In this document: piece by piece, positions 1 through 60,723 of the stretch
Numbering within the stretch: the first letter of the stretch is position 1
Layout of the letters: every line of letters begins with the position of its first letter
DNA from: an uncultured Candidatus Saccharibacteria bacterium
GTDB lineage: Bacteria; Patescibacteriota; Saccharimonadia; Saccharimonadales; JAGQNJ01
Assembly (NCBI GenBank): GCA_964602865.1
Contig: CAZRSX010000001.1
Location: 153,986 to 217,985 of the forward strand
Length of the DNA: 64,000 bases
Direction: 5' to 3'
Notes under the pieces: model-generated
Databases searched by the model: none
The model's input: only the letters and a program-made list of their open reading frames with translations
Told to the model about the DNA's origin: nothing
Position numbers and translations under genes: made by a program

Positions 1-66
1 AGCAGAACAATAGAAAGGATAGCCGTAATTGAGACTAAAATAATCCCAATATATTGCCGCAAACGA

Positions 67-52715: not shown

Positions 52716-54512
52716 ATGAGTCAAGACCATATTCGGAATTTTTGCATTATTGCCCATATTGATCATGGCAAAAGTACCCTTGCTGACCGTTTGCTCGAGA
52801 TAACCGGCACAGTCCAGCAGCGCGATATGAAAGCCCAACTGCTTGATAAAATGGACCTGGAACGCGAAAAAGGCATCACCATCAAACTCGCCCCAGTCAG
52901 GATGGAGCATGATGGGCATCAGCTCAATCTGATTGATACGCCGGGCCACGTCGATTTTAGCTATGAAGTGTCACGCAGTCTGCAAGCCTGCGAAGGTGCA
53001 TTGCTGGTAGTTGATGCCAGCCAAGGCATTCAGGCGCAAACGCTGGCCAATGTCTACTTGGCGATGGAACAAGACCTCACGATTATTCCGGTGCTCAATA
53101 AAATTGACTTACCGGCGGCCGACGTGGAGCGTGTCAGTGCCGAAGTCATTGAACTGCTGGGCTGCAAAAAAGAAGACATCCTGCACATCAGTGCAAAAAC
53201 AGGGCAGGGCGTCGACAAAGTGTTGGAACGAATAATTTTAGATATACCTTCACCGCAAATTGGGCAGCAGGGCAAGGCGGTGCGTGACCCAGAAACGAGG
53301 GCGCTCATTTTTGACAGTTACTACGACGATTACCGCGGTGTTATTCTGTATGTCCGGCTCGTTGACGGCGCCATCAACAAAAACAGCGCGATTCACATGA
53401 TGGCCACAGGCACAGACGGCATCGCACTGGAAGTCGGTGCGCTGACGCCCAGCATGAGCCCACTTGCCAAATTAGGCAGCGGCGAAATCGGCTATGTTGT
53501 CACCAACCTCAAGTCCACCCGCGAAGCTCGCGTTGGCGATACCGTTACCCTCGTAGCCCACAAAGCCCAACAAGCACTACCGGGCTACAAAGATGTCAAG
53601 CCATTTGTCTACGCCGGCTTTTTCCCCCAGAGTAACGAAGAATACAACTTACTCAAAGAGGCCATCGAAAAACTGTCGCTGTCTGACTCGGCCTTGCAGT
53701 TCGAGCCGGAAAGCTCGCCGGTGCTTGGTTTTGGTATGCGGGTAGGTTTTTTGGGGCTGCTGCATATGGACATTGTCCGCGAGCGGCTGGAGCGCGAGTA
53801 CGACCTTGGCCTGATCGTGACCAACCCATCGACCGATTACCACGTGGTGCTCACCAGCGGCGAGGAGCTGGACATTCGCTCGGCCAGCGACCTGCCTGAT
53901 GTCGCGCAGATTCAGGAAATCAAAGAGCCGTGGATTGTCGGCGAAATCGTCGTGCCCAAAGCATACGTCGGCGCCGTACTCCAGCTGATTACCAGCAAGC
54001 GCGGACTGCAAAAAAATCTGTCGTACGTTGACGAGCTCACTGTTGTCACGTTTGAAGCGCCACTGGCGAACCTGCTGACAGATTTTTACGACCAACTCAA
54101 AAGCGTGACGTCCGGCTACGGCTCGTTCAACTACGAACTGGCAGATTATCGGACGGAAGATTTAGTACGCATAGATTTTTACGTGGCTGGCGAAATAGTC
54201 GAAGCACTGAGCGTCATGGCGCACCGCAGCGAAGCTCAAAGTCTAGGCCGCGAGGTGGTCGGCAAGCTCAAGGAAGTCATCCCGCGCCAAAACTTTAAGG
54301 TGGCGCTCCAAGCGGCGATTGGCGGCAAGTTTATTGCCCGCGAAGACCTCAGCGGCTACCGCAAAGATGTGACGGCCAAACTCTACGGCGGCGATGTCAC
54401 ACGCCGCAAAAAACTGCTCGAAAAGCAAAAAAAGGGCAAAGCTCGCATGAAACGCTTCGGCCAGGTCGATATCCCCGCCGAAGCCTTCACCGTGATGCTT
54501 AAAAGAGACTAG
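52716..54512 (+). CDS. lepA: translation elongation factor 4 (LepA)
   Basis: IRNFCIIAHIDHGKSTLADRLL, DTPGHVDF, NKIDLP, and a LepA-specific C-terminal domain. Confidence 0.95.
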   Translation: MSQDHIRNFCIIAHIDHGKSTLADRLLEITGTVQQRDMKAQLLDKMDLEREKGITIKLAPVRMEHDGHQLNLIDTPGHVDFSYEVSRSLQACEGALLVVDASQGIQAQTLANVYLAMEQDLTIIPVLNKIDLPAADVERVSAEVIELLGCKKEDILHISAKTGQGVDKVLERIILDIPSPQIGQQGKAVRDPETRALIFDSYYDDYRGVILYVRLVDGAINKNSAIHMMATGTDGIALEVGALTPSMSPLAKLGSGEIGYVVTNLKSTREARVGDTVTLVAHKAQQALPGYKDVKPFVYAGFFPQSNEEYNLLKEAIEKLSLSDSALQFEPESSPVLGFGMRVGFLGLLHMDIVRERLEREYDLGLIVTNPSTDYHVVLTSGEELDIRSASDLPDVAQIQEIKEPWIVGEIVVPKAYVGAVLQLITSKRGLQKNLSYVDELTVVTFEAPLANLLTDFYDQLKSVTSGYGSFNYELADYRTEDLVRIDFYVAGEIVEALSVMAHRSEAQSLGREVVGKLKEVIPRQNFKVALQAAIGGKFIAREDLSGYRKDVTAKLYGGDVTRRKKLLEKQKKGKARMKRFGQVDIPAEAFTVMLKRD

Positions 54513-54530
54513 TCAGACCATATTTTCTCA

Positions 54531-54555
54531 TTTTCCAAGGAGTATCCTTGGAAAA
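54531..54555 (+). terminator. hairpin after lepA
   Basis: TTTTCCAAGG-agtat-CCTTGGAAAA is a perfect 10-bp stem. Two further hairpins follow, at 54555-54570 and 54585-54600. Confidence 0.65.
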
Positions 54556-54652
54556 CACCACATATGGTGTCGGTACGCTATATATAGTGTAGCAACACTA
54601 CCTATAGCGTCGGAAACCACCCAAACTTTTCCACACCTCGCAACCCACACAC

Positions 54653-54682
54653 TTGCAATCCACTCAGGGGGGGGGGTACACT
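54653..54682 (+). promoter_or_regulatory. candidate promoter TTGCAA-18-TACACT with a G10 tract inside the spacer
   Basis: -35 at 54653-54658, G10 at 54667-54676, -10 at 54677-54682. The downstream 12-mer TAACCACAAGAG (54689) recurs at a similar offset from the promoter of the next surface gene (56724). Confidence 0.45.
54667..54676 (+). repeat. G10 homopolymer
   Basis: Counted directly. I saw no other G or C run of comparable length in the window. Confidence 0.95.
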
Positions 54683-54751
54683 TATAGGTAACCACAAGAG
54701 TAATGGAGTATAATCAACAAAAAGGGAAGCAGAGAGAGGAAAAGACACACA

Positions 54752-56637
54752 ATGTTTACTATACATATCAAACAACTACTACAACCAAACCGCCTATTCA
54801 ATGGAGCATTAGCCCTCCTCTTCCTCATAGCCACTATCCTCACCCTCATCCCAGCCCAACCAGCTCAGGCCGTTAATGTACCCATTACTATCCCGGATAC
54901 ACCGGTAGCTGATTTCCCGACCACTAGTGGTTTTGCCGGTGCCATCCTCCCCGCTCCTGACGGCTCAGTCTATGTCGGCGGTAACTTCACCGAAATCGGC
55001 GGTGTAGCCCGTAGTCGTCTGGCTCGTATCTTGCCAGACAACACCGTAGACCCAAATTTTGACCCGGATATTTCTGGCGAGTCGTGGAGTAATATATATG
55101 AACTCGCTCTTAGCCCTGACGGCCAAACGCTTTATGCTGGTGGCACCTTCGATACTGTTAACGGTGATATTGCTCGCGGAAGCTTGGCTGCTTTTAACGC
55201 AGAAACAGGTGTGGTGACAGACTTTAATCCTCTTGGAGGCGGTTATGTATATGCCATGACTCTATCTAGTGATGGAAACATTTTATATGTTGGTGGTGAC
55301 ATCAGCAAAGACGGGAGAAGCGTATTATTTGCACTCAACACCGCAACAGGAGCGATAGTACCCGGCTTTGAACCAGCCATTGATAGTATATGTGTCATGA
55401 ACTCTAGTTGTACAGAAGCCCTTGCTCTTAGCCCTGACGGCCAAACGCTTTATGCTGGTGGCACCTTCACGACATTAACTGTTCCTGCTAAAAAAATCTA
55501 GTAGCCTTCAATGCCAATACGGGCGCTGTTACTGATTTTAGCCCTAACGTAGAGACCGGACAAGGTATATATGTTTCTAGCCTTACCCTTACTAACGACG
55601 GTCAAACTCTCTACGCTGGTGGCACCTTCACCACCGTCAACGGCGATACCCCCAGAAACGGCCTAGCAGCTTTTGATACCTCCACCGGCACCGCTACGAG
55701 TTTTGATCCCAATATAAACGGTGCCAGCGCCCTGGCTGTCACTAGTGATGGTAACATTCTCTACGTCGGTGGCTGGTTTACCACCGTCAACGGTGACGTA
55801 GCTCGCAACGGCTTCGCTGCCTTCGATACCACCACTGGCATCGTTACTGATTTCAATCCTAACACGGACGATGGTACCTACATCCTCGCCCTCTCCCCCG
55901 ACAACCAAACTCTCTACGCCGGCGGCGCCTTCACCACCGTAGGCGGCCAGTCCCGACCACACCTCGCCGTCTTCCAAGCTGAGAACACCGCCCCCAACCA
56001 AGACCTCGACAATGACAACATCCCCAACCAACAAGAACAACAAGGCCCCAACAACGGCGATGCCAACAATGATGGTACACCCGACTACCAACAATCCCAC
56101 GTCGCCTCTCTCATCAACCCCGCCACCAACCAGTACGCCGTCCTGGAAGCCAATGAACACTGCTCCATCACCGAACTTGCCCTTACTCCCGAGTCTGCCA
56201 ATACCGCCTCAGATTCTAGCTATGACTACCCCCTAGGCCTAATGGACTTCACCATAGACTGCCAAGACAACGGCTTCACCACTACCATTACCCAATACTA
56301 CTACCATGCCCCCCAAGACCAGACCTACACCCTCAGAAAGTACAACCCTACCACCCAGACCTACACCACCATCACTGATGCCAGCATTGCCCACGAAACC
56401 ATCGACAACCACCCTGTCACCATGGCCACCTACAGCATCACTGACGGCGGCCCGCTGGATCTAGACGGAGAAGCCAATGGTATCATCGTAGACCCGGCTG
56501 GGCTTGGTACCACTGCAGATAGCAGCACCAACACCGGACTGGCAGACACCGGTATGAACCCCATGTACCTGCTTGTAGCCAGCGTCACCTTAGTCAGCAC
56601 TGGCTTTGTACTCAGCAGACGAGTACGCTACCTATAG
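54752..56637 (+). CDS. LAxTG-anchored beta-propeller surface protein, interrupted by a 1-nt frameshift at an A7 tract
   Basis: Signal peptide (LIPAQPAQA). There are repeated blades (...LSPDGQTLYAGGTFTTVNGD..R..LAAF...TG..T.F.P), a DNDN/NNDG Ca-binding-like region, and an Ig-like domain. The C-terminus carries LADTG, a hydrophobic helix and RRVRYL. The first frame stops at 55501, and the rest continues open from 55498 in the -1 frame relative to the first part (a -1 slip or one added A joins them). Confidence 0.7.
55490..55496 (+). repeat. A7 homopolymer at the frameshift site
   Basis: The sequence is GCT AAA AAA ATC TAG TAG. One extra A, or a -1 slip, gives ...PAKKNLVAFNANTG..., which restores the blade consensus. 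Confidence 0.9.
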
Positions 56638-56683
56638 CGTCGGTACACCATATGTGGTGCGGTTATTGTTGGGAGACAGCGGT

Positions 56684-56713
56684 TTGACTGATCTGCGTGC
56701 GGCTTGCTATACT
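56684..56713 (+). promoter_or_regulatory. promoter TTGACT-18-TATACT of the second surface gene
   Basis: -35 at 56684-56689 and -10 at 56708-56713. The shared 12-mer TAACCACAAGAG and an AAGAGGA SD follow. Confidence 0.5.
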
Positions 56714-56749
56714 AAAAACTAGCTAACCACAAGAGGAAATAAAACAAAC

Positions 56750-57754
56750 ATGGATCCGTGCATTTTAGCAGACACCGGTGTCAACCAAACGATACTTCTA
56801 GCCATCGGTAGCATATTGTTATGTGCGGCTGTCGGCTTTTTATATCTGCAGAAACGCTTTGGTATCAAAAGCCTTGTTTTGCTTTTTGCTATGTTTGGCT
56901 TGACACTTTTTGCCGCTTTACCTGCAACAAGCTACGCGCAAACTGCCGGAGATTGCCCGCCAGCAGCTCAAGACGAAGATAGCGGCAGTTCGCCGCAGGT
57001 GCTGAGTCTTGTGAATGACCAAGGAGTGCTACAACGCCCAAGTGGCGGTGATGGAGGTTCCCCGCAGACCTACCTCCATCTTGCTATTCTTGCCAATGAC
57101 AATGCACTGGCCGGTGACCCTATCGACTGGACGACCATCGATCTCGACCCGAACACGGCTGGCCAGCAAACCAGCCTAAGCCTCACTCACCCGAGCGACG
57201 CGACCTATAGTTGTGGCAGCATCACCGTAAGCAGCTTTGGTATTCTGGAGATTAGCCTGAACATCCGCTGTTACAATGAGTCCTTTGATGAACTGACCAT
57301 TCCTGGCGACTACGCCATTCCGCCGTTTACCTACACCGCTCAGACGCTTGGCGGCAATCCGGCGCCAGCACCGGCTACGGTGACTATCCTGGTTGTAGCA
57401 GAGCCGGAACCGGGCGTTGTCTTTGCTCAAGATGATCAGGAATCTGCGGGTGGTGGTTGTTCGTTTGAGGGCTTTACACTGAACTTGGTGGCTAACGACT
57501 CGACAACGACCGGCACCATAGACCCGACAACCGTTGACCTAAACCCCGGACTGCCCGGCCTGCAAAAAACCGTCACCCTAGACTACCAAGCGTCAGTGTT
57601 CCAAGCCAGTGTAGACAACAGCGGCGTCGTCACCGTGACGCGACTGAGCGGCATTGATGCCGATCCGCCAACCTTTTACTACACCGTGCAAAACACCAAT
57701 GGTGATGTCTCGAACGTTGCCACGATTCTCTACGAATGCATGGTATGGTCATAG
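56750..57754 (+). CDS. secreted protein with two cadherin/VCBS-like modules and an N-terminal sorting-signal-like segment
   Basis: The N-terminus MDPCILADTGVNQTILLAIGSILLCAAVGFLYLQKR is followed by a signal-peptide-like LVLLFAMFGLTLFAALPATSYAQT. Two modules are related (ILANDNALAGDPIDWTTIDLDP and LVANDSTTTGTIDPTTVDLNP). Confidence 0.5.
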   Translation: MDPCILADTGVNQTILLAIGSILLCAAVGFLYLQKRFGIKSLVLLFAMFGLTLFAALPATSYAQTAGDCPPAAQDEDSGSSPQVLSLVNDQGVLQRPSGGDGGSPQTYLHLAILANDNALAGDPIDWTTIDLDPNTAGQQTSLSLTHPSDATYSCGSITVSSFGILEISLNIRCYNESFDELTIPGDYAIPPFTYTAQTLGGNPAPAPATVTILVVAEPEPGVVFAQDDQESAGGGCSFEGFTLNLVANDSTTTGTIDPTTVDLNPGLPGLQKTVTLDYQASVFQASVDNSGVVTVTRLSGIDADPPTFYYTVQNTNGDVSNVATILYECMVWS

Positions 57755-57772
57755 AATAGAGTCTAAACGTTC

Positions 57773-59384: not shown

Positions 59385-59411
59385 TTAGCACTCTTGACTC
59401 GTGAGTGCTAA
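59385..59411 (+). promoter_or_regulatory. CIRCE operator (HrcA binding site)
   Basis: TTAGCACTC-N9-GAGTGCTAA is a perfect consensus inverted repeat. The N9 spacer contains a TTGACT -35 (59394-59399), with TATACT at 59418-59423. Confidence 0.9.
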
Positions 59412-59432
59412 TTTAGTTATACTTGGCACTGT

Positions 59433-60225: not shown

Positions 60226-60723
60226 ATGAGTAAAAAACTAACCCTCAAAGATTTAGAGCAGCAAGTCGGCGAGCTAACCGAAGCGTTGCAGCGCGAGCGG
60301 GCCGATGCCGTGAACTTACGGCGCCGACAGGAAGAGCAAATCGGCAGCCTCACAACAGTGGTCAAAGCGCAGGTTATTCAGGAATTACTACCGGCAATCG
60401 ATAACCTGGAGCGGGCGCTGAAGCATGTACCAAGTTCTAGTCAACAGTCAACAGTCAACAGTCAACAGCAAAAAACGTGGGAAGACTGGGCTAAGGGTGT
60501 CTTGGGTATCAAATCACAGTTTGAAAAGACACTGACTGATTTGGGAGTCCAGCGCATCAAGACAGTTGGCGAAATATTTGACCCTAGCATCCACGAAGCA
60601 GTTGGCATGGAAGATGGCGACGGCGACCACGAGATTGTCAGTGAAGAATTACAGCCAGGCTATCTCTTGGGTGATGAAGTCATCCGCCACGCCATGGTAA
60701 AGGTAAAACGGGAGGCGAAGTAA
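60226..60723 (+). CDS. grpE: nucleotide exchange factor GrpE
   Basis: Coiled-coil N-terminus, LLPAIDNLERAL, and a C-terminal beta-domain (FDPSIHEAV...GYLLGDEVIRHAMVKV). Confidence 0.9.
   Translation: MSKKLTLKDLEQQVGELTEALQRERADAVNLRRRQEEQIGSLTTVVKAQVIQELLPAIDNLERALKHVPSSSQQSTVNSQQQKTWEDWAKGVLGIKSQFEKTLTDLGVQRIKTVGEIFDPSIHEAVGMEDGDGDHEIVSEELQPGYLLGDEVIRHAMVKVKREAK
60441..60468 (+). repeat. 4 x TCAACAG heptanucleotide tandem repeat inside grpE
   Basis: Four perfect tandem copies, encoding SQQSTVNSQQ in a loop after the LERAL motif. Confidence 0.95.

What the first reader, a model, noticed from the sequence alone, without database searches (positions are those of the whole stretch)
54653..54682. 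G10 homopolymer inside the spacer of the surface-gene promoter
TTGCAA (54653), an 18-nt spacer whose last 10 nt are G10 (54667-54676), and TACACT (54677) form a promoter-like unit. The promoter of the next surface gene (TTGACT-18-TATACT) is followed at a similar distance by the same 12-mer TAACCACAAGAG, which supports this being the real promoter. Loss of one G would give the optimal 17-nt spacer. Homopolymer tracts between -35 and -10 are an established mechanism of graded phase variation, for example in Neisseria porA and opc. I saw no other run like this in the window.
Basis: partly seen in the sequence, partly recalled or inferred. Interest (0 to 1): 0.7.

Follow-up and report, generated by a model that had tools for sequence, protein, structure and literature searches.

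The report
Poly-G tract in surface-gene promoter
A run of ten G's sits between the two recognition boxes of the promoter of a cell-wall-anchored surface protein gene in a Saccharibacteria (TM7) genome; it is a plausible but unproven slippage switch of a kind long known in pathogens, and the gene is also broken at a run of seven A's.

Summary
TTGCAA (54653-58), an 18-nt spacer ending in G10 (54667-76) and TACACT (54677-82) are all there. G10 is the only G/C run of 7 or more in the window, and 351 kb of related Saccharibacteria DNA has none longer than 7.

The hexamer match alone (8/12) is worthless here. The promoter call is rescued by comparison: the same layout, TTGnnn-17/18-TAnACT-5..10-TAAYMAYAAG, precedes the neighbouring surface gene and homologous surface genes in three other Saccharibacteria genomes. 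Eighteen nt is the usual spacer in this set, so G10 gives normal geometry rather than a sub-optimal one.

The gene encodes a secreted DUF5122 beta-propeller with an LADTG sortase signal. It lies in a 3.2-kb island absent from relatives and is frameshifted at an A7 run; A8 would restore it. Saccharibacteria reportedly lack MutS/MutL.

Length variation could not be tested, because no second strain exists in any collection searched.

Verdict: a credible candidate contingency locus of the porA/opc/tp0126 type, a new member of a known kind, and unproven. Two arrays of NrdR-box-like palindromes upstream of both promoters are an unexplained extra.

The parts
54653..54658 (+). -35-like hexamer TTGCAA
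   Evidence: Read. It aligns with TTGACT, TTGCTA, TTGCTC and TTGTCA of the family promoters. It lies in the second copy of a 15-bp tandem duplication at 54631-54663.
54659..54676 (+). 18-nt spacer TCCACTCA + G10
   Evidence: Read. Four of the five family promoters also have an 18-nt spacer and one has 17.
54667..54676 (+). G10 homopolymer, the candidate slippage tract
   Evidence: Only G/C run of 7 or more in the window. No G/C run longer than 7 in 351 kb of related loci. It aligns with the G-rich spacer GCGTGCGGCTTGC of the paralogous promoter.
54677..54682 (+). -10-like hexamer TACACT
   Evidence: It aligns with TATACT (gene 2 and L082) and TAAACT (L083, L084). It has no TGn extension, unlike gene 2, L083 and L084.
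54685..54703 (+). Conserved leader box TAGGTAACCACAAGAGTAA; the predicted transcription start is about 54689-54690
   Evidence: The 19-mer is 89% identical to 56720-56738. The core TAAYMAYAAG follows the -10 by 5-10 nt in all five family promoters. The start position is inferred, not mapped.
54709..54714 (+). Alternative -10 TATAAT (rival promoter, TAGGTA-18-TATAAT, 9/12)
   Evidence: It lies 37 nt before the ATG; gene 2's -10 lies 36 nt before its ATG (read).
54555..54610 (.). Three 16-bp palindromic boxes (54555, 54575, 54595) with 4-bp linkers, NrdR-box-like
   Evidence: 12 strand-matches against 0.77 expected. The conserved NrdR-box positions C4 A6 A8 T9 T11 G13 are met 6/6, 6/6 and 5/6 (read against PMC13584703).
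54752..55501 (+). Surface gene, N-terminal part: signal peptide and DUF5122 beta-propeller blades; ends at a stop 5 nt after the A7 run
55490..55496 (+). A7 run at the frame junction; A8 would restore one 628-aa ORF
   Evidence: One search shows the frames. P0001 aligns straight through the junction; the other 19 A/T runs of 7 or more that lie inside ORFs leave their ORFs intact.
55492..56637 (+). Surface gene, C-terminal part in the -1 frame: more propeller blades, a choice-of-anchor U domain, then LADTG + hydrophobic segment + RRVRYL sorting signal
   Evidence: (NF041766, 57.4 bits against a cut-off of 32).
56625..56660 (.). Two further palindromic boxes (56625, 56645) upstream of the gene 2 promoter
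   Evidence: The box at 56625 lies 59 nt before its -35, and the box at 54595 lies 58 nt before its -35.
56684..56735 (+). Paralogous promoter of gene 2: TTGACT-18-(TGc)TATACT-10-TAACCACAAGAG
   Evidence: (10/12, with TG extension).
56750..57754 (+). Gene 2, the second surface or membrane protein of the island (334 aa, no Pfam or NCBIfam family)

Best explanation
The G10 run forms the promoter-proximal ten bases of the 18-nt spacer of a sigma-70-type promoter (TTGCAA / TACACT). That promoter drives a secreted, sortase-anchored DUF5122 beta-propeller surface protein in a Saccharibacteria genome. The tract is long, and the lineage is reported to lack MutS/MutL, so slipped-strand mispairing at replication should add or remove G's at high frequency. 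That would change the -35/-10 distance (G9 = 17, G10 = 18, G11 = 19 nt) and so raise, lower or shut off transcription, as in porA/opc/fetA of Neisseria and tp0126 of Treponema pallidum.

An A7/A8 run inside the ORF would give a second, translational on/off level. In the sequenced state the promoter geometry is normal for the family and the ORF is off.

Shown: the tract, its rarity, the conserved promoter layout, the surface nature of the gene, and the frameshift. Inferred: the transcription start, the instability of the tract, any effect on expression, and any adaptive use.
For: 1. The tract and hexamers are at the stated coordinates.
2. G10 is the only G/C run of 7 or more in 64 kb, where runs of 6 or more are ten-fold depleted, and related loci have none longer than 7 in 351 kb.
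3. Sigma-70 consensus promoters are used in this organism: matches of 10/12 or better are about 15-fold denser in intergenic than in coding DNA.
4. The full layout TTGnnn-N16-18-TAnAnT-N3-12-TAAYMAYAAG occurs 5 times in 1.07 Mb on both strands against 0.23 expected (maximum 2 in shuffles). In all five it runs towards the adjacent surface gene: 62 and 30 nt from the expected transcription start to the ATG in the two window genes, and about 50-60 nt from the box to the called start in L082 and L084. In L083 the called start is about 135 nt downstream and is probably mis-called.
5. The regulatory regions of genes 1 and 2 align as duplicates (score 70 against 13 +/- 7.5). The -10 hexamers are in register, and the G tract lies opposite a G-rich spacer.
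6. The box-to-promoter distances, 58/59 nt to the -35 and 82/83 nt to the -10, agree only when the tract is about 10 long. This shows that the tract is an integral part of the promoter geometry.
7. The gene product is a surface protein: signal peptide, DUF5122/Rax2 propeller, choice-of-anchor U domain and LADTG sorting signal.
8. The gene lies in a 3.2-kb island absent between LepA and Bcp in relatives.
9. The frameshift falls exactly at A7, while the other 19 A/T runs of 7 or more inside ORFs are in frame.
10. No MutS/MutL was found in Saccharibacteria (PMC8406219).
11. Precedents are cited in PMC2791445 and PMC7864442.
Against: - The hexamers match the consensus only 8/12. That level is equally common in coding DNA, and the scanner did not report the pair.
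- A perfect TATAAT at 54709-54714 (9/12 with TAGGTA) sits at the same distance from the ATG as gene 2's -10 does from its ATG.
- None of the homologous promoters examined carries a homopolymer, so the tract is not a conserved feature of the family.
- The layout motif was widened after the homologues had been seen, and L083 and L084 are orthologues, so there are about four independent cases, not five.
- There are no population or strain data at all.
- The gene is frameshifted, so the locus could simply be decaying.
- The sequence appears to come from a single assembly (one cluster member), so the exact tract length is a consensus call.
Confidence: 0.5

Rival explanations
1. Incidental tract in a decaying gene. 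The surface gene is a recent pseudogene (frameshift at A7). Its promoter has drifted: 8/12, TGn extension lost, spacer bases replaced by G's from an already G-rich spacer. The G10 run has no selected switching role. It may slip, but nothing depends on it.
For: - Frameshift in the ORF.
- Weak hexamers compared with the paralogue's 10/12 plus TG.
- No homopolymer in any homologous promoter.
- The paralogous spacer GCGTGCGGCTTGC is G-rich, so few changes are needed to make a G run.
- The island is lineage-specific and dispensable in relatives.
Against: - There is only one lesion: 381 codons remain open downstream of the frameshift, so any inactivation is very recent or reversible.
- The lesion lies exactly in a mononucleotide run, while the other 19 comparable runs inside ORFs are intact.
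- The tract length gives exactly the family-typical 18-nt spacing and preserves the box-to-promoter distances of the paralogue.
- The lineage purges G/C runs strongly, so a neutral G10 should be short-lived.
Confidence: 0.25
2. The tract is upstream of the core promoter rather than inside it. Transcription starts from the TATAAT at 54709-54714, and the G tract lies at about -45 to -54. There, changes in length would alter the helical phasing between the upstream palindromic boxes (a regulator's sites) and the core promoter, as with the TAAA tract of nadA or, from my own recollection, the C tract of the Bordetella fim promoters.
For: - TATAAT is a perfect -10, and 9/12 matches are about 4.5-fold enriched in intergenic DNA here.
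- It is 37 nt from the ATG, against 36 nt for gene 2's -10.
- Arrays of palindromic boxes lie upstream of the tract.
- The nadA precedent is in PMC2791445.
Against: - The -35 partner is poor (TAGGTA, 3/6) and there is no TGn extension.
- The homologue L082 has no equivalent TATAAT at that place but does keep the TATACT-5-TAACCATAAG layout.
- The global alignment with gene 2 puts TACACT, not TATAAT, opposite TATACT.
Confidence: 0.13
3. Sequencing or assembly artefact. The G run, or its exact length, and the A7 frameshift are homopolymer miscalls or a poly-G artefact of two-colour chemistry.
For: - Single assembly with no second copy to compare.
- Homopolymers are the commonest site of indel errors (general knowledge).
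Against: - The other 19 A/T runs of 7 or more inside ORFs are in frame, so the assembly is not homopolymer-noisy.
- Without about ten bases at this place the -35/-10 spacing and the box-to-promoter distances would not match the paralogue.
- The run is internal, with unique sequence on both sides.
Confidence: 0.04

Closest known systems
Neisseria meningitidis porA, opc and fetA promoters (poly-G or poly-C between -35 and -10)
   Same: A G/C homopolymer of about 10 within the -35/-10 spacer of a surface-protein gene. Its length sets the spacing and so gives graded expression (PMC2791445). From my own recollection of van der Ende et al. 2000, which I could not read here, porA also has an intragenic homopolymer route to loss of expression, as this gene has at A7.
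   Different: Here nothing has been measured: no transcription start, no length polymorphism and no expression data. The organism is a Saccharibacteria (CPR) episymbiont-type bacterium, not a Proteobacterium. The product is a sortase-anchored beta-propeller, not an outer-membrane porin. The family-typical spacer is 18 nt rather than 17.
Treponema pallidum tp0126 (OmpW homologue) and the tprE/G/J/L poly-G promoters
   Same: A poly-G of 7-11 in the promoter of putative surface proteins in a small-genome, host-dependent bacterium. In tp0126 the tract lies between -35 and -10, and expression is best when the spacing is 17 nt (PMC7864442).
   Different: In T. pallidum the length heterogeneity was shown by fragment analysis and the effect by GFP reporters. 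Here both are only inferred. The genes are unrelated.
Neisseria nadA (TAAA tract between NadR operators) and Bordetella fim genes (C tract between the BvgA site and -10)
   Same: A repeat tract lying between regulator-binding sites and the core promoter, so that its length changes the phasing. Here palindromic box arrays lie 56 nt upstream of the tract (PMC2791445; the Bordetella case is from my own knowledge).
   Different: The regulator that binds the boxes is unknown here. The tract appears to lie inside the core promoter rather than distal to it.
NrdR boxes of ribonucleotide reductase promoters
   Same: The five 16-bp partial palindromes carry the six conserved NrdR-box positions C4 A6 A8 T9 T11 G13 (6/6 in three boxes, 5/6 in two) and ACAC...GTGT-like ends (PMC13584703).
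   Different: Neighbouring boxes have 4-bp linkers, not 15-16 bp; only the outer pair at 54555 and 54595 has a 24-bp spacer (PMC12051234). The boxes lie upstream of surface-protein genes, not RNR genes, and about 40 and 23 nt upstream of the -35 rather than over the promoter. No nrdR or RNR gene is in the window.

Membership tests
Promoter-spacer homopolymer phase variation (porA/opc/fetA/tp0126 type) | Mononucleotide tract long enough to slip (about 8 or more G/C) | tested here: met
   G10 at 54667-54676.
Promoter-spacer homopolymer phase variation (porA/opc/fetA/tp0126 type) | Tract lies between the functional -35 and -10 of the promoter that drives the gene | tested here: inconclusive
   The hexamers score only 8/12, which is uninformative. 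The conserved layout in four or five family promoters and the paralogue alignment support the placement. A rival TATAAT exists. The transcription start is not mapped.
Promoter-spacer homopolymer phase variation (porA/opc/fetA/tp0126 type) | Tract length differs within or between populations | not testable with these tools
   No second copy was found. DNA-pattern scans of genome contigs and metagenome contigs returned nothing. A protein scan of the metagenomes found only a 36% relative. Exact look-ups found nothing. The cluster of the identical protein has one member.
Promoter-spacer homopolymer phase variation (porA/opc/fetA/tp0126 type) | Expression level depends on tract length | not testable with these tools
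   This needs reporter fusions or transcript quantification.
Promoter-spacer homopolymer phase variation (porA/opc/fetA/tp0126 type) | Controlled gene encodes a surface-exposed product | tested here: met
   Signal peptide, DUF5122/Rax2 propeller, choice-of-anchor U domain, and LADTG + hydrophobic segment + basic tail, which is shared with P0001.
Intragenic homopolymer (translational) phase variation | Mononucleotide run in the ORF at which a one-base change switches the reading frame on or off | tested here: met
   The two halves of the gene meet at A7 (55490-55496), and A8 gives one 628-aa ORF that aligns through the junction with P0001. Reversibility is not testable here.
NrdR operator | 16-bp box with conserved C4, A6, A8, T9, T11, G13 | tested here: met
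   The boxes at 54555, 54575 and 56645 score 6/6; those at 54595 and 56625 score 5/6.
NrdR operator | Two boxes separated by 15-16 bp (or 24-27 bp) | tested here: not met
   Adjacent boxes have 4-bp linkers. Only the pair 54555/54595 has 24 bp, and the gene 2 pair has 4 bp only.
NrdR operator | Located in, and overlapping, the promoter of a ribonucleotide reductase operon, in a genome that encodes NrdR | tested here: not met
   The downstream genes are surface proteins. The boxes end 42 and 23 nt before the -35. No nrdR or RNR signature is present in the window or in the fetched loci. The rest of the genome is not available.

The most novel reading that the evidence does not exclude
The locus is a two-level contingency switch: a G tract in the promoter and an A tract in the ORF. 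It controls a sortase-anchored surface propeller in a mismatch-repair-less CPR episymbiont, which would make it the first simple-sequence phase variation described in Saccharibacteria or the CPR. It would also be wired to arrays of NrdR-type operators, so that surface-protein expression would respond to the ATP/dATP status sensed by NrdR, a regulator so far tied almost wholly to ribonucleotide reductase genes.
Probability: 0.1. Interest if true: 0.7.

Novelty: new member of a known kind. Interest (0 to 1): 0.42.

Why it matters
Saccharibacteria live attached to host bacteria. Which surface proteins mediate attachment, and how their expression varies, is largely unknown. A slippage switch on a wall-anchored propeller protein would point to a concrete candidate for variable host interaction. 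In a lineage without MutS/MutL, it would also show that the contingency-locus strategy of pathogens operates in the CPR. My full-text searches found no report of simple-sequence phase variation in Saccharibacteria or Patescibacteria. The mechanism itself is textbook, so the value lies in the organism and the gene, and it depends on data that are still missing.

Tried and rejected
**Searches for a second strain, to compare tract lengths (all empty).**
- Exact-protein look-ups of LepA, gene 2, Bcp, the 249-aa fragment, GrpE and P0121.
- Gapped DNA-pattern scans of genome contigs and metagenome contigs.
- A protein scan of the metagenomes, which found one 36% relative.

**Orthologous promoters next to LepA.** Relatives keep FtsH-MurJ-LepA and Bcp/ADK/HrcA but lack both surface genes.

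**Homopolymers near homologous genes.** None was found in L081-L086 or L088.

**Invertible-element reading.** A 36-nt inverted repeat (54556-54591 and 56624-56659) flanks the gene. I rejected inversion as a switch because the repeat is made of the palindromic boxes themselves, and because an inversion would carry promoter and gene together. No recombinase was looked for.

**Gene 2's N-terminal LADTG as a remnant of a deleted gene.** Rejected, because the feature is conserved in most homologues (seven of the eight aligned).

**Known RNA element in the leader.** No Rfam match at E up to 1.

**NrdR regulon membership.** The box sequence fits, but the spacing and the gene context do not.

**MAFFT alignment of the five promoters.** It came out of register, so I used anchored regular-expression matches instead.

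Full report
**1. What is in the sequence.**
TTGCAA lies at 54653-54658. It is followed by an 18-nt spacer, TCCACTCA plus ten G's (54667-54676), and then by TACACT at 54677-54682. The 12-mer TAACCACAAGAG occurs only at 54689 and 56724. It lies 6 nt after TACACT and 10 nt after the TATACT of TTGACT-18-TATACT (56684-56713), which the promoter scanner reports at 10/12 with a TG extension.

G10 is the only G or C run of 7 or more in the window. G/C runs of 6 or more number 2 against 21.6 expected. In 351 kb of Saccharibacteria-type loci fetched later, the longest G/C run is 7, with none of 8 or more against 4.8 expected.

**2. Organism and setting.**
The upstream gene (52716-54512) is LepA. Its nearest relatives among species-representative genomes are Saccharibacteria/Saccharimonadia MAGs, at 81% identity or less. 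The order FtsH-MurJ-LepA ... Bcp-ADK-HrcA-GrpE-DnaK is shared with those relatives. However, the two genes between LepA and Bcp (54513-57772) are missing from that position in all of them. The finding therefore lies in a 3.2-kb lineage-specific island.

**3. The gene behind the tract.**
The ORF from the ATG at 54752 stops at 55501, 5 nt after an A7 run (55490-55496). The protein continues in the -1 frame to 56637. With A8 it forms one 628-aa protein that aligns without a break across the junction to its best homologue, P0001 (49% identity). It has these features:
- a signal peptide ending in AQA (read from the sequence);
- DUF5122/Rax2-type beta-propeller repeats;
- a choice-of-anchor U domain (57 bits against a cut-off of 32);
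- a C-terminal LADTG motif, a hydrophobic segment and a basic tail, which is a sortase sorting signal that P0001 also carries.

Of the other A/T runs of 7 or more in the window, the 19 that lie inside ORFs all leave their ORFs intact. The assembly is therefore not noisy at homopolymers, and the frameshift is probably real.

**4. Is TTGCAA-18-TACACT a promoter?**
The consensus match alone says nothing. In this window, matches of 10/12 or better are about 15-fold denser in intergenic than in coding DNA, so sigma-70-type promoters are in use. But 8/12 matches are equally common in both, and the scanner did not list this pair. A rival, TAGGTA-18-TATAAT (54685-54714), scores 9/12. Its -10 lies 37 nt before the ATG, and gene 2's -10 lies 36 nt before its ATG.

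The decisive support is comparative. The layout -35-like TTGnnn, 17-18 nt, TAnACT, 5-10 nt, TAAYMAYAAG is found at five places:

| Locus | Layout |
|---|---|
| Window gene 1 | TTGCAA-18-TACACT-6-TAACCACAAG |
| Window gene 2 | TTGACT-18-TATACT-10-TAACCACAAG |
| L082 (P0001) | TTGCTA-17-TATACT-5-TAACCATAAG |
| L083 | TTGCTC-18-TAAACT-5-TAATAACAAG |
| L084 | TTGTCA-18-TAAACT-5-TAATAACAAG |

The full pattern occurs five times in 1.07 Mb on both strands, against 0.23 expected from shuffles. Each time it faces the adjacent surface gene: four DUF5122 genes and, in the window, gene 2.

Two cautions apply. I widened the motif after seeing the homologues. L083 and L084 are orthologues, so there are about four independent cases.

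In addition, the regulatory regions of genes 1 and 2 align end to end (67 of 116 columns identical; score 70 against 13 +/- 7.5 for shuffles). TACACT lies opposite TATACT, and the G tract lies opposite the G-rich GCGTGCGGCTTGC.

**5. What the tract length means.**
Four of the five family promoters have 18-nt spacers. The distances from the conserved box at 54595 to its -35 and -10 (58 and 82 nt) match those from the box at 56625 to the gene 2 promoter (59 and 83 nt). G10 therefore gives the normal family geometry. The tract replaces the TGn extension that gene 2, L083 and L084 have.

**6. Would it switch?**
This is inference. Long G/C runs slip in every system studied. Promoter-spacer tracts of this type control porA, opc and fetA (PMC2791445) and tp0126 (PMC7864442). 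A comparative study found no MutS or MutL in Saccharibacteria (PMC8406219), which would raise slippage rates. It would also explain the strong purge of G/C runs elsewhere in these genomes.

Against this, no homologous promoter carries a homopolymer. I could find no second strain to compare. The only identical protein in the large collection is a single NCBI entry whose DNA could not be retrieved. All other look-ups and scans were empty.

**7. Upstream palindromes.**
Five 16-bp boxes of the form ACRCYAYMTATRGYGT lie at exact 20-bp steps: three before the gene 1 promoter and two before the gene 2 promoter (0.77 expected). They carry the six conserved positions of NrdR boxes (PMC13584703). But their 4-bp linkers, their position upstream of the -35 and their gene context do not fit NrdR operators (PMC12051234). 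No such tandem boxes occur in the other 1 Mb examined. They indicate a shared regulator for both island genes. Its identity is open.

**8. Verdict.**
The promoter assignment is reasonably supported. The surface-gene context is confirmed. A second homopolymer lesion in the same gene strengthens the contingency-locus reading but equally fits recent decay. Switching itself is untested.

This is a candidate new member of a well-known class, in a phylum where it has not been reported in the literature I could search. I put the phase-variation mechanism at about 0.5, incidental decay at 0.25, the upstream-of-TATAAT variant at 0.13 and an artefact at 0.04.

Noticed in passing
window 55490-55496: The surface gene is out of frame at an A7 run, and A8 would give one 628-aa ORF. 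The other 19 A/T runs of 7 or more inside ORFs are in frame. This could be a second (translational) switch, recent decay, or a -1 slippage site.
   Followed up: yes
window 54555-54610 and 56625-56660: Five 16-bp palindromes at exact 20-bp steps carry the conserved NrdR-box positions (C4 A6 A8 T9 T11 G13). They have 4-bp linkers and lie in front of surface genes. No nrdR or RNR gene is in the window, and there are no such arrays in 1 Mb of fetched loci.
   Followed up: partly
window 56750-56880; homologues P0122-P0126 and P0128: The gene 2 family has a sortase-like motif at the N-terminus: M(D/E)xC-x-LADTG, then a hydrophobic segment, a basic loop, and a second hydrophobic segment ending in YAQ. 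The motif is present in seven of the nine aligned sequences; P0127 and P0129 start after it. A sortase gene lies 2 kb from the homologue in L088.
   Followed up: partly
window 54513-57772: Both surface genes form an island that is absent between LepA and Bcp/ADK in all related Saccharibacteria loci examined.
   Followed up: yes
window 54631-54663: A 15-bp tandem duplication (CCACACCTCGCAAC / CCACACACTTGCAAT). The second copy supplies the -35 TTGCAA, and the first has TCGCAA.
   Followed up: no
window 60439-60468: A perfect heptanucleotide repeat, AGTCAAC x 4.3, lies inside the GrpE coding region. Gain or loss of one unit would shift the frame of a housekeeping chaperone gene.
   Followed up: no
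window 54531-54555: A perfect 11-bp hairpin (TTTTCCAAGGA gta TCCTTGGAAAA) lies just after LepA. It is probably the terminator but has no T run after the stem, and its last base is the first base of the first palindromic box.
   Followed up: no
window 59394-59423: The promoter-like site before hrcA, TTGACT-18-TATACT, has the same hexamers and spacing as the gene 2 promoter.
   Followed up: no
whole window and Saccharibacteria loci: G/C runs of 6 or more are about ten-fold depleted in the window and about 3.5-fold in the related loci, while A/T runs of 6 or more are about 2.5- to 3.5-fold enriched. This fits a lineage reported to lack MutS/MutL.
   Followed up: yes
window 55500-56750: There is a strong negative GC skew (-0.25 to -0.43) in the 3' half of the surface gene. 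The leader around the tract is also C/A-rich, so the G10 run stands in a G-poor context.
   Followed up: no
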